A stretch of 64,000 bases of DNA from Stylophora pistillata (Eukaryota): assembly GCF_002571385.2 (NCBI RefSeq), contig NW_019217844.1, forward strand, positions 647,274 to 711,273. The letters run 5' to 3'. Numbering within the stretch: position 1 is the stretch's first letter; each line of letters begins with the position of its first letter. Below, one piece after another: positions 9,603-43,591 of the stretch. The notes below the pieces were generated by a model, which ran no database searches, had not been told where the DNA came from, and saw only the letters and a list, made by a program, of their open reading frames with translations. Both the position numbers and the translations under genes were made by a program.

Positions 9603-11338
9603 ATGAAGTCTACTCTATTTCTGGCGACTATTTTGCTAGGTAAACACTGAGTCGATTACTTTGTTTTGTTGAATGCTTTATATTTATAAGGTTTAAATGC
9701 CCACTGCCATTTCCAGAAAATCATAGATAGAGATCATATGTGTTAAAAATATTTGCTGTTTCGTTTGATTTGTTTTGGACTAACGTTTTTTTTTTTTTTT
9801 TAATCAGTGGCTGTATCAGATCTCACTGCTAAAAGCATAAAACTAAAACATCCAAAACATCACAAGTCAGAGAGGAAGCAGCACCATGACCAAAGCCATC
9901 AAAGACAAGCTGTGGTTCCACCTGCGCAACCAGCTGCAGCTGAAGCAACAACCACTGCAGCACCAGCCACTGTCCCTGCAGCTGGAGCATCAACTACCGT
10001 AGCTCCAGGACCAGTCCCTGCTGCAGGAGCAGTGACCACTGCAGCACCACCTGCTGGTGCGGCGGGAACAACTAAGGCACCAGCAACTGTAAGTGTGGCA
10101 CCCGCAGCTGCCAAAACACCAATGACTACTTTGGCACCAGGTGCTCCTACTACACAAGCGGCAACTACTGGTGCTGCACCCGCAGCTGGTGCAGCGGCAG
10201 CAACAACTGTGGCACCAGCGGCATCGACCCCAAAGCCTGTAACAGCCACTGGTGCATCTGCCGCTGCAGCAACCACTGTGGCACCTGCTGCACCGACTGC
10301 AAAACCTGCAACGGCCACTGCTGCTCCTGCCGCTGCTGGCGCTGCAGCAACCACCGTGGCACCAGGTGCATCAACCGCGAAGCCTGAAACTACACCCGTG
10401 GCTGTACCCGGAGCGACAACTGCCCCTGCTGCCTCCGCAAGCGTTGCTCCTGCTGCGGGTGGAGCAGCACCTACCCCAGCGGCTCCCCCAGCAGGTAGTG
10501 CATCTCCATCTGGACCGGCACAGCCTGCTGCCGCTGGAGCTAAACCTGCTCCTGGAGCCCCTACTCCCGCTAAGCCTACCACCGCCGCTCTAACCAGTGA
10601 GTTGATATTGGGATTTTTTTGTCATTGTTGTCTTTTTTTATGAAAGACAAGCCGATCATACTTGGATAGAATTCTATTGCTTGAATAGCACTTTTAATAA
10701 TTGCCTTTGAACTGATAATAAAACAGACATTTTAAAGCTATCTTAAGAAATCTGATGTATAGGTCCCTTTCTTAAACTTGGTACACATATAAGAATCCGT
10801 CATCCGGCTATTTAACTTTAGTAAGGTGTGATTTTAAATTTGCGATTTTAAGATTTCAGTTTGTCTTTTCACCGTTTTGCTGTCGAGGAAGGTATCCAGA
10901 TGACATACTGCAATAAAAGAAAGTTCTTGTTTATATTTCCTCTCTACTTCTAAGATTTGGACGTCGACGAATGCAATCTGTGAGAACTGCGCAATGAACA
11001 AAATCTAGCTAACCTTTCGTTTTAACGTGACAGATACAGTTCCACCACAAATCACGCCGAGCGCGGTTCCCGCTAAGGATAAAGAGACGGTAATAGAGGA
11101 AGAGTCGTCCTCAAAGGCACAACACAAGAAGGAAGATAAAATTGAGGAGAAGAATGATAAGTCTCATGAGGAAGGTAAAGAGTCCGACAGTGATAGTAAA
11201 CATGACACGGAGAAGGAGGTAGAGAACAAATCCGAAAAGGAAATGGAGGATAAGTCTAAAGGCGAGTCTGAGAAGAAGCTGAAGGACAAGTCAGATCACA
11301 AAAAGCATCATCGAGCTCATCGTCATCGGGATGAATAA
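9603..11338 (+). CDS. Secreted Ala/Pro/Thr-rich mucin-like protein with His/Lys-rich N-terminus and charged, His-rich C-terminus; exons 9603-9639, 9808-10596, 11034-11338 (376 aa)
   Basis: Signal peptide MKSTLFLATILLVAVSDLTA formed across a phase-1 intron; phases consistent; 5' non-coding exon donor at 9484/9485; AATAAA at ~11660. Confidence 0.85.
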
Positions 11339-40900: not shown

Positions 40901-43591
40901 CCAAGCAACCACCGGTGCAAATACTGGGAAAAGAGACAACACCACAAGTGGAAGATGCAGCTAGAGCAATAGCAACTCAGCTGGAAGGAGAAATTGATCA
41001 CAATGAATTATCAGGTGTGAGTCAAAATCACGGTGCAAGTTTCTAACGGCAGGCTACAGGTGAACCAGCTCTGTGGTATCGTCATACAACCCATTTCACA
41101 AGCTGTCACAATGATAACAAGTTTTCACTGTTTGCCGGCAGCAACAATATTTTAAAAAGAAAAAAATTATTGTCAATAAACTTGCAAATGGTAAAATATA
41201 CCTGGATGATAAAATTTTGCTTAAATTAATAACTCCGCGATGGAACCAAAAGGCAACTAAATACCGCACTGTTAATGATCACAGCTCCGCAGAGCAATCA
41301 TCATTAATTGATCTTAAACTACATCGGTTCACTTCGGGTTACACAAAGGTTCCTCGCGGCGCCATAAAGCTAAGCTGATAGTGTATTTTTATCCAACTCA
41401 GATATATTTTTTGTTCTTCATTTGATTTATTCAGCTCCTCCAAACGCTGGTGGTCAGCTTGACGAGGCTCGCATTGGTGTTCAAAGTGCAATGGTGCCCA
41501 CGAATGGTGAAACAAAGGGAAAGATGTCATTTTCTTTAAACGTTTCATCAGCAGAACAAGAACAAAAAACACATCCACAGGATGGTCCTACAATTAGCGG
41601 TAAAACACAGGTAGGCGAAAAGCCTGATAAAGGAACTAATCCTATTGTGCTCTTAATGGGATACGGACTCGGAGAAAAGTCAAGTCAAAGGGTGTATGAT
41701 GATCTGAACAACGCTACCGATTTCCCAGCCTCTGATGGAGAAACAAAGAATAATGTAGGTCCGCATGATGCGCCAATTCATGGTAAGCTATTAGCATTCA
41801 GAGACAATGGTACTTCTCTTACTGAGGCTGCCCAGGAACGCAAATCGCCGAGCAGTAGGTTTCGCACAGAAGATAATGTCCCTGAGTCGGACTTAAAGGA
41901 GATTGTAGAGTTACTAGACAATGCAGCTTCCGTAAACGGGCGCTTACAGCCAGTTGCTGCTAATCAATATATGCATGAAGAAACTAATGAAGGTAACGCA
42001 GATTCAAATGCGTTGCAGTTGAACTTGGGTGCACAGAGTTTAGATTCTCAGGAGATGAGCACTTTACAAAGCAAAGTGACGCACAGAGGCAGAGTAAAAA
42101 ACACACACTCCATCTTGCCAATAAGTTCTGACGATACAACAAACCAGAAAGCGTTTGAACAAATAGCAGTGCATGTACTTCCTAACACTTCTGAGGTTAA
42201 TTCAACAAGCATGGTTGAAAACTTTGTTAAGCTCAATCGTTCAGAGGGAAGCATGCCAACAGACTCCATGGTTGCGGGCAACAAGCATGGCAACATAAAC
42301 AATCCTTTACAGGTTAGTGCATGTTCAGACAATTTCTTAACCGCGTGTCTAAAATAACACAGGATTACATTAGTTTTGGTTTTCTTCGCTTTGCGATTGT
42401 TTTAGAAAACTTGCCCCCCACCCCCCCTAAAAAGTAGAAGAAAAATCAATCTCCTGCCGTGATTAGTACTCCAACATTTTAGGTGCCGCTTTTGTTTTAT
42501 TCGAAATGGATGATAATGACCCTTAGAAATCCTACAAGAAACAGTAGGAAGAGTCGACAAAAACAGGTCCTATCTTTCTTTAACAGATGAACCCATCGTT
42601 TCGAAGCAAGCCTCGCGTCTCAAAACCATCGGGGAAACAAGTCACACTTACCATCAACGAGAGGCCCGGAACTGGTGAAGCTGTTTTCAAGGTGAAAAAA
42701 TCCCCTACTGCAACTGGAGTAAGTTACACTACAGAGGACCATCCAGAAGGCTTGCCCTCGCCCACTTATCTACTCCAGAGTGAAAACGAAGAGGCCCGGG
42801 CCAAGGCAGATGAAGAAGAAGCTAAAATCAGAGCGGCCACGAGCGCCATTAAAAATGTGATTAAGTTGTTTGACAAGGACCACAGTCATCATGGCCATAC
42901 CAGACTTATTCAAGAGCCCACTCAGGATTTTCCTGCTGATTCCAAATCGCTGGAAGACGGCCCCGAGTTGATCGCAGGAATGGACGCAAGTGAATATAAT
43001 GCCGAGGTTGCACAGGCACAAAATCTGGACCGTGCCCGAGCCAGCGCCCTGGCCCTTTCGCAACAGAATGGGCCCTATCGAAGTCCTAGTGAGGCGAGTC
43101 CTGGGTCACCTCCGCCAAACTACGCCGTTGTTCGCATGAGTGATTCAAAGGACTGGAAAAGCCTGGCTCACACGCTTGCTACTCAGCTGAAACATGTGCT
43201 TAATCATATGGAAGACAGAGAAAAAGAGAACCGTCATGAAAAGCAGAAGATCCAAGAACAAATGATGCTTATGGCTCAACAACAAATGACGGGAATTGGG
43301 CGAGAGGACGATGAAGGCCCGGCCGCGGATGATGATGACGACGACGACTATGATGACGAAATGAGGAACAGGGATGAAATGGAGAAACGACGTCATTCTG
43401 TGTCCAGTCCCCAAGAGAGAACAGAGGTTGGAAATACACCGCGGAACAGCAGATTGACTGACCAGAAATTCTATCACGAAAAGTTAAGAAGAAAATTGAA
43501 TGGGCTTCAATTGGCTCACAAAGCTGTGAACAGTTTATCACGACTGGAAATACGACATAAGTCGAACAAACAGAAACGAAGGCTAACCTAA
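37909..43591 (+). CDS. Secreted protein with one N-terminal ShKT domain and a long low-complexity/acidic tail; exons 37909-37993, 38889-39053 (ShKT), 40462-40551 (tentative), 40811-41014, 41435-42312, 42587-43591 (~808 aa)
   Basis: Signal-like MEPIRSFLCKGWAMVVLMACTVLA; CGDFKEVLRRCHVWKDMGFCFKYRRQMQHVCNKTCQYC; phases consistent; AATAAA immediately after the stop. Confidence 0.8.
40105..40440 (+). mobile_element. 5'-truncated Penelope-like retroelement (endonuclease C-terminus plus pseudo-LTR)
   Basis: RKTLEQKLIFQTGGLNPTGINERFSF resembles the C-terminal end of PLE GIY-YIG endonucleases; followed by a hammerhead motif; related inverted remnant at 59020-59210. Confidence 0.75.
40298..40331 (+). 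ncRNA. Minimal type I hammerhead ribozyme motif (PLE-type) with a core U4>C change
   Basis: GCT-CCGACGA-A-GGGC-TAAC-GCTC-GAAA-C-GTC-AGC: stem I GCT/AGC, stem II GGGC/GCTC, GAAA core, GUC cleavage triplet. Confidence 0.65.

What the first reader, a model, noticed from the sequence alone, without database searches (positions are those of the whole stretch)
9603..43591. Uninterrupted 34-kb cluster of five secreted proteins built from ShKT, CAP and disordered modules
Seen: five consecutive genes between WDR83 and COLGALT each start with a short hydrophobic signal exon ending in a phase-1 intron. Together they hold 5 ShKT domains (3 genes), 3 related CAP domains (2 genes) and long Cys-poor low-complexity regions, with no housekeeping gene between them. 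Known: ShKT and CAP families are recurrent in cnidarian venom, gland-cell and mucus secretions. Inference: this is a co-regulated, cell-type-specific secretory locus (venom/nematocyst, mucus, adhesion or skeletal matrix) whose products may co-assemble. I do not recognise it as a described system.
Basis: partly seen in the sequence, partly recalled or inferred. Interest (0 to 1): 0.8.

Follow-up and report, generated by a model that had tools for sequence, protein, structure and literature searches.

The report
Ancient coral cluster of secreted proteins
Five neighbouring stony-coral genes encode proteins predicted to be secreted; the largest, a two-headed CAP protein conserved as far as sea anemones, likely works as a structural linker in a rare secretory cell rather than as a toxin, but shared expression of the five is untested.

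Summary
Between WDR83 and COLGALT lie five intact genes of Stylophora pistillata, each opening with a hydrophobic phase-1 exon. They hold six ShKT domains (not five) and three CAP domains. Gene 4 is one RNA-supported 1,496-aa protein (CAP, disordered, two ShKT, disordered, CAP) with the same layout in Oculina, Montipora and Nematostella. Its first CAP has lost the His/Glu cavity residues with a conserved charge swap; its second keeps all four. The three CAPs form one cnidarian subfamily older than the coral-anemone split. Adjacent pairs among genes 2-5 stay neighbours in other corals, and genes 4 and 5 share a head-to-head region with two conserved non-coding elements. Venom is weakly supported: the domains evolve slowly, and the gene 2 orthologues of Acropora and Montipora have no ShKT. 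Skeleton is not supported. Co-regulation is not shown: ShKT and CAP clusters are common in this genome, corals keep gene order anyway, and no shared promoter motif stood out. Best reading: an old secretory-cell locus of structural cargo. No paper naming the accessions searched (genes 2-4 and orthologues) was found.

The parts
9603..11338 (+). g1: 3 coding exons, about 376 aa, no Cys; signal exon, His/Lys-rich start, Ala/Thr/Pro-rich mucin-like core, Lys/Glu/His tail (14 His, all in the two ends)
   Evidence: open model; composition; no Pfam hit; no RNA or orthologue test
13797..18731 (+). g2 (XP_022783830.1, 410 aa): signal exon, three single-exon ShKT, Thr/Ser/Asn spacer, Lys-Arg site, conserved Tyr/Asp-rich module, basic tail
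   Evidence: model equals RefSeq; Pfam; orthologues
17420..18660 (+). g2 conserved C-terminal module (about 90 aa over two exons, between a conserved Lys-Arg and a conserved RKSK); no Pfam family; single copy in the genome; kept in Acropora and Montipora, which lack the ShKT domains
   Evidence: coordinates approximate
21227..23769 (+). g3 (XP_022783754-6, GAPR-1-like, 208 aa): signal exon, short exon 21413-21475, one CAP with N-terminal CxxxCxxxC and a DxxWF tail exon (23701-23769)
   Evidence: AlphaFold2 model mean pLDDT 81.6; orthologues
25156..36173 (-). g4 (LOC111324460, XP_022783751.1, 1,496 aa, 12 coding exons): signal, CAP1, 616-aa low-complexity linker, two ShKT, 412-aa linker, CAP2 with conserved tail
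   Evidence: RNA joints; equals RefSeq; orthologues
34597..35045 (-). g4 CAP1 exon: GAPR-1 His54/Glu65/Glu86/His103 positions read Tyr/Gln/Lys/Asp in 5 of 5 full-length orthologues examined
26468..27268 (-). g4 CAP2 (two exons): His/Glu/Glu/His all kept in 5 of 5 full-length orthologues examined
29076..29642 (-). in-frame 567-nt alternative intron inside a g4 coding exon; holds a 117-nt (39-aa) repeat of 3.6 copies
   Evidence: spliced and unspliced forms; RefSeq X1 vs X2; repeat
36502..36652 (.). conserved non-coding element 1 between g4 and g5 (about 80% identical in L002 and L003, 73% over a longer stretch in L004; single copy in the genome)
37425..37586 (.). conserved non-coding element 2 between g4 and g5 (73% identical in L002; single copy)
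37909..43591 (+). g5 (about 778 aa): signal exon, one ShKT, exon 40811-41014, long Cys-free acidic/basic region with conserved blocks; head-to-head with g4
   Evidence: Oculina orthologue LOC144664276; L002

Best explanation
Five adjacent genes with hydrophobic first exons, four of them pairwise linked in other corals, likely supply structural cargo to one rare secretory cell type (gland cell or cnidocyte), with g4 predicted to act as a two-headed linker rather than a toxin. Shown: gene structures, domains, the g4 layout shared with Nematostella, a three-branch CAP subfamily older than the coral-anemone split, conserved g3-g4 and g4-g5 adjacency, low bulk RNA level of g4. Inferred: (1) the locus grew by local duplication of one CAP unit plus gain or loss of single-exon phase 1-1 ShKT modules; (2) the proteins enter the regulated secretory pathway, and g2 (perhaps g5) is cut at conserved Lys-Arg sites; (3) g4's charge-swapped CAP1 (Lys86/Asp103) pairs with an intact CAP (g4 CAP2 or g3), so that g4 chains or loops around long glycosylated spacers and single-CAP g3 caps or tunes the network; (4) g1, with His-rich ends on an Ala/Thr/Pro core, is a filler or metal-linked strand in the same secretion. 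Steps 2-4 are untested.
For: g4 CAPs are 78-91% identical across robust and complex corals and 61-66% to Nematostella, while linkers are 14-46% and change length. The Tyr/Gln/Lys/Asp versus His/Glu/Glu/His contrast holds in 5 of 5 orthologues. The three CAPs are each other's best hits in the genome (E 1e-26 and 1e-17, next 1e-8) and form one clade (SH-aLRT 100, quick tree; 23 focal domains against 43 of 127 other domains) with anemone members in all three branches. L001 holds g4 and g3 orthologues tail-to-tail on one intronless contig; L002 holds g4 and g5 signal exons head-to-head with two single-copy conserved elements. Oculina tags g4 ACROYT_G002721 and g2 G002723; Montipora foliosa g4 and g3 have consecutive accessions. 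The g2 Lys-Arg site and module are conserved in 5 of 5 aligned species; Lys-Arg is called a prominent cleavage signal of nematocyst proteins in PMC5832418. g4 is about 12 reads in 12.9 million, as a rare cell type would give.
Against: No cell-level expression data seen. No shared upstream motif: the conserved g4/g5 motifs do not stand out before g1, g2 or g3, and shared 7- and 8-mers are mostly AT-rich and only marginally above random regions (p 0.025 and 0.07). Coral gene order is generally conserved. ShKT and CAP clusters are common in this genome, and a run of five signal-peptide genes is expected 0.08-1.9 times per genome at assumed secreted fractions of 8-15%. g1 has no orthologue or RNA support. 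PMC3627010 saw no strong sign that Nematostella CAP proteins are structural. Linkage in anemones is untested.
Confidence: 0.45

Rival explanations
1. Ordinary neighbourhood: one local CAP duplication (g3, g4) plus unrelated secreted genes that drifted together and stay linked because coral genomes rearrange slowly; each gene has its own cell type and role, and at most g4 and g5 share a promoter.
For: [quoted passage not shown]
Against: Only 3 contigs hold CAP and ShK within 35 kb; conserved head-to-head elements and tail-to-tail transcript overlap; g5's only ShKT hit besides itself is in g2 (E 0.003).
Confidence: 0.3
2. Venom locus: nematocyst or gland-cell toxins, with ShKT peptides released by processing as in NEP3 and CAP proteins like NEP-16, -17 and -20.
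For: g2 has three ShKT like the NEP3 family, which has a Stylophora member; Stylophora cnidocytes express ShK proteins (PMC8162421); short CAP proteins are released from Nematostella nematocysts; a tube-anemone member of the CAP clade is deposited as a toxin candidate.
Against: Slow evolution of the domains; g2 orthologues of Acropora and Montipora lack ShKT yet keep the C-terminal module; no Lys-Arg between ShKT1 and ShKT2 of g2; the ShKT profile matches MMP23 and a nematode metalloprotease domain far better than BgK (E 8e-7 and 3e-6 against 0.21); g4 RNA is scarce.
Confidence: 0.15
3. Skeletal organic matrix or bulk surface mucus.
For: g1 is mucin-like in composition; g4 and g5 have long Ser/Thr-rich and acidic stretches, and g4 has 22 N-glycosylation sequons.
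Against: No XP_0227837x, XP_0227838x or PFX297x accession in the main text and tables of PMC7115838; g4 is present in Nematostella; g4 is rare in bulk RNA.
Confidence: 0.08

Closest known systems
GAPR-1/GLIPR2 and PR-1-type CAP proteins (PDB 1SMB)
   Same: Best solved-structure match of g3 and g4 CAP2 (E 8e-12, 7e-10); CAP2 keeps His54, Glu65, Glu86, His103.
   Different: Signal peptide; clade-specific N-terminal CxxxCxxxC and DxxWF tail; CAP1 charge-swapped; two CAPs about 1,130 aa apart in g4.
NEP3 family (Nematostella nematocyst precursors with three ShKT)
   Same: g2 has a signal peptide and three ShKT; the family has a Stylophora member (PMC5832418, section 9 read).
   Different: No Lys-Arg between domains 1 and 2; a conserved non-ShKT module is what all g2 orthologues share; sequence kinship to NEP3 not tested.
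NOWA (Hydra nematocyst outer wall antigen)
   Same: Large secreted CAP-bearing protein with a structural role (PMC3627010 passage).
   Different: NOWA is medusozoan-specific with a highly derived CAP and carries minicollagen Cys-rich domains (reference title); g4 has none, its linkers hold 3 Cys in about 1,030 aa.
CRISPs (CAP plus C-terminal ion-channel domain; snake triflin, natrin, pseudecin)
   Same: CAP and an ShK-like fold in one chain; PDB hits E 1e-9 to 1e-3.
   Different: In g4 the ShKT pair lies about 620 aa from CAP1 and about 410 aa from CAP2, not on a hinge behind the CAP; g3 has none.
Double-CAP nematode ASPs (Na-ASP-1 type; recalled, no call)
   Same: Two CAP domains in one secreted chain.
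   Different: There the domains are adjacent; here they cap a long disordered chain.

Membership tests
CAP superfamily | Pfam PF00188 above cut-off and CAP fold | tested here: met
   3 of 3 above cut-off; confident model of g3 with CAP-like order of helices and strands; fold search not obtained
CAP superfamily | His54/Glu65/Glu86/His103 cavity residues (GAPR-1 numbering counted; their role is recalled) | tested here: inconclusive
   CAP2 4 of 4, g3 3 of 4, CAP1 0 of 4
CRISP | hinge plus ion-channel domain directly C-terminal to the CAP | tested here: not met
   DxxWF tail follows each CAP; ShKT far away or absent
ShKT domain | six Cys in ShK spacing, PF01549 | tested here: met
   6 of 6 in register; 4 of 6 above cut-off
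ShK/BgK-type potassium-channel toxins | stand-alone peptide released from a short precursor | tested here: not met
   all six sit inside 410-1,496-aa proteins without flanking dibasic sites of the Lys-Arg or furin kind
ShK/BgK-type potassium-channel toxins | Lys-Tyr functional dyad and channel block | not tested
   ShK was not returned and the BgK alignment was not displayed; block needs an assay
NEP3 family | signal peptide and three ShKT | tested here: met
   g2 in Stylophora, Pocillopora, Oculina; not in Acropora or Montipora
NEP3 family | Lys-Arg between ShKT1 and ShKT2 (described for NEP3 itself) | tested here: not met
   g2 Lys-Arg sites at 38 (inside ShKT1), 283 and a furin-type site at 401
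NEP3 family | sequence similarity to NEP3 and nematocyte expression | not testable with these tools
NOWA | minicollagen Cys-rich domains | tested here: not met
   no such Pfam hit, linkers almost Cys-free
Co-regulated cell-type gene cluster | co-expression in one cell type | not testable with these tools
   atlas supplements could not be seen; bulk RNA only for g4
Co-regulated cell-type gene cluster | linkage conserved beyond background | tested here: inconclusive
   pairs among g2-g5 linked in corals; background high; anemones and g1 untested

The most novel reading that the evidence does not exclude
An undescribed hexacoral self-assembly kit: g4 is a telechelic protein whose charge-swapped CAP1 locks onto the intact CAP2 of the next molecule, g3 caps the chains, g1 cross-links through His-rich ends, and g2 and g5 are processed co-cargo, all made by one secretory cell type from one locus kept since before the coral-anemone split to build an adhesive thread, capsule part or granule gel.
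Probability: 0.15. Interest if true: 0.75.

Novelty: new variant of a known kind. Interest (0 to 1): 0.42.

Why it matters
CAP domains are widespread and their mode of action is poorly understood (PMC7340583 abstract listing). A protein that has kept one intact and one charge-swapped CAP at the ends of a disordered chain since before corals and anemones split offers a direct test of CAP-CAP pairing as a way to build extracellular material. The g2 module is a conserved peptide family without a Pfam entry. The locus also cautions against calling coral ShKT and CAP genes toxins by domain alone. If only the ordinary reading holds, it is one of many secreted-gene neighbourhoods.

Tried and rejected
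CAP2 as a separate sixth gene with its own signal exon near 27700: rejected, RNA contigs join it to g4. g4 ending at 28537 and g3 ending at 23473: rejected, both splice on. A g5 exon at 40462-40551: open in frame but without support from the Oculina orthologue; left out. Shared promoter motif: none convincing; a POU-like reading of element 1 is not kept in the three other corals. Protein atlas: best scores 0.76 (g2 orthologue) and 0.75 (g1 core, viral mucin-like glycoprotein), both below the lead threshold. The careful CAP tree did not finish; the quick tree is used, focal rows were chosen by their signature, and 9 fragments plus two thirds of other domains were left out. Paper searches for accessions and for such a cluster returned 0 papers. 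Earlier scan findings: none. Flanking stretches L005-L007 were fetched but not examined. Supplements of the Stylophora cell atlas (PMC8162421) could not be seen and may hold the cell-type answer.
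Full report
Source and setting. The window is C61:647274-711273 of a 398-Mb genome; its proteins match Stylophora pistillata records letter for letter. The flanks are WDR83 (best natural PDB hit E 2e-51) and a COLGALT1 relative (E 1e-19).

Gene models. I built spliced models from splice sites and refined them with RNA and orthologues. g1 (+, 9603-11338) has no Cys, an Ala/Thr/Pro core (39% Ala, 22% Ser+Thr, 18% Pro) and 14 His confined to its ends; it has no RNA or orthologue test here. 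g2 (+, 13797-18731) equals XP_022783830.1. g3 (+, 21227-23769) maps to the 208-aa GAPR-1-like XP_022783754-6. g4 (-, 36173-25156) equals XP_022783751.1; RNA contigs of two studies show 10 of its 11 coding introns and an in-frame 567-nt alternative intron. g5 (+, 37909-43591) is open over 778 aa and aligns with Oculina LOC144664276 at 49% and 59% in two blocks. All five first exons are hydrophobic and phase 1; this is a hydropathy heuristic, not SignalP, and a phase-1 intron after a signal exon is common in secreted animal genes (own knowledge). Six ShKT and three CAP domains are present. No further gene was seen in 91 other frames or by Rfam.

Is it more than chance? Partly. The genome gave 68 CAP and 146 ShK hits (lower bounds). 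Thirteen contigs hold 4 or more ShK hits within 35 kb and 11 hold 3 or more CAP; 3 hold both. Five signal-peptide genes in a row are expected 0.08-1.9 times per 25,000 genes at assumed fractions of 8-15%, more if g3 and g4 count as one event.

Gene 4 is the notable part. The layout signal, CAP1, linker, two ShKT, linker, CAP2 recurs in Oculina, Montipora, two unnamed transcript proteins and Nematostella LOC116619814. CAP1 is 78-85% and CAP2 88-91% identical among corals, 66% and 61% to Nematostella; linkers are 14-46% and vary in length (one N-terminally truncated row has no CAP1). At the GAPR-1 positions His54, Glu65, Glu86, His103 (counted), CAP2 reads His/Glu/Glu/His and CAP1 Tyr/Gln/Lys/Asp in 5 of 5 orthologues; g3 keeps three of four. 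The three CAPs are each other's best hits in the genome and share an N-terminal CxxxCxxxC and a DxxWF tail. In a quick tree 23 such domains form one clade (SH-aLRT 100) against 43 others, with branches for CAP1 (100), CAP2 (94), g3 (98, with the anemone Actinostola) and Hydra/Sanderia (98). So the three units predate the coral-anemone split.

Gene 2. Orthologues in Pocillopora and Oculina have three ShKT; RefSeq models of four Acropora and two Montipora species have none. All aligned species share a Lys-Arg site, a Tyr/Asp-rich block and an RKSK site. The block has no Pfam family, no atlas lead and no paralogue in the genome. Whether ShKT was gained or lost is not determined.

Linkage. Stylophora g2, g3, g4 are PFX29739-41. 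Oculina g4 and g2 are ACROYT_G002721 and G002723, with g5 on the same 49-Mb sequence. Pocillopora damicornis g2 and g3 share a scaffold and are merged in one model. Montipora foliosa g4 and g3 have consecutive accessions; M. capricornis g2, g3, g4 share a 68-Mb sequence (accession order is indirect evidence). Direct DNA: L001 carries g4 and g3 orthologues tail-to-tail on one intronless contig; L002 carries g4 and g5 signal exons head-to-head, and two non-coding elements between them are conserved and single-copy. Of 4 related loci, these 2 reach a neighbour. Against weight: gene order is highly conserved between robust and complex corals but not with anemones (PMC6214176, passages), and anemone linkage was not testable. 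No motif common to the four upstream regions stood out.

Expression. On g4 exons raw reads amount to about 12 in 12.9 million, on the expected strand; the pool may include symbiont reads and divergent colonies. This fits a rare cell type or stage rather than bulk secretion.

Literature seen. PMC8162421 (passages): Stylophora cnidocytes express ShK proteins and adults have many gland types. PMC5832418 (passages and section 9): NEP3 family. PMC3627010 (passages): short CAP proteins in nematocysts, NOWA, no strong sign of structural CAPs in Nematostella. PMC6767649 (passages): ShK single-exon and labile. PMC7115838 (term search of main text and tables): no g2, g3 or g4 accession among skeletal proteins. 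PMC12549020, PMC13608440, PMC7340583 (passages): nothing on this locus. Searches for 12 accessions or locus ids and for such a cluster gave 0 papers; the library lacks most subscription journals and supplements were not seen.

Mechanism. Most likely (0.45) the locus supplies structural cargo of one rare secretory cell type: g4 as a two-headed linker whose unlike CAP ends pair, g3 as a single-CAP partner, g2 and g5 as processed co-cargo, g1 as a mucin-like strand. Pairing, processing and co-expression are inferences. Rivals: an ordinary neighbourhood held by slow rearrangement (0.30), venom (0.15), skeleton or bulk mucus (0.08).

Verdict. A real, old, apparently undescribed locus of known domain types in a new arrangement: new variant of a known kind, interest 0.42.

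Noticed in passing
window 29076-29642 (-): In-frame alternative intron within a g4 coding exon removes 189 aa holding a 39-aa repeat; both forms are in RNA, and the repeat is not seen in the orthologues aligned.
   Followed up: partly
window about 30230-30510 and about 12710-12960: tRNA-like interspersed repeats; the first, in a g4 intron, draws very deep RNA coverage from copies elsewhere.
   Followed up: no
L001:3900-5233: g3 and g4 orthologue transcripts assembled into one contig, suggesting overlapping 3' ends in another coral (possible antisense overlap).
   Followed up: partly
G000:C105:242758-292609: A second CAP plus ShK cluster (5 ShK and 3 CAP hits in one 35-kb stretch), probably tandem CAP-ShK genes.
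   Followed up: no
P0096, P0100, P0104 (Hydra, unnamed, Sanderia): The branch of this CAP clade holding Hydra and Sanderia replaces Glu86/His103 by Gln/Cys, a second conserved remodelling of the cavity.
   Followed up: no
window 24728-25216 (+): 163-aa open frame between g3 and g4 without a Pfam hit, overlapping the last g4 exon; looks like a mobile-element remnant (recalled impression).
   Followed up: partly
window 46740-46816 and 63482-63551: Two inverted pairs of a perfect ATGCATAATTAAT (POU-like, recalled) in the COLGALT region, probably ends of a small repeat.
   Followed up: no
P0020, P0062, P0063 (Montipora capricornis): Two accession series for g2 and g4 on the same chromosome-size sequence, suggesting a duplicated locus or haplotype duplication.
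   Followed up: no
window 22808-22945 and 23092-23180: 16-nt and 14-20-nt minisatellites in a g3 intron.
   Followed up: no
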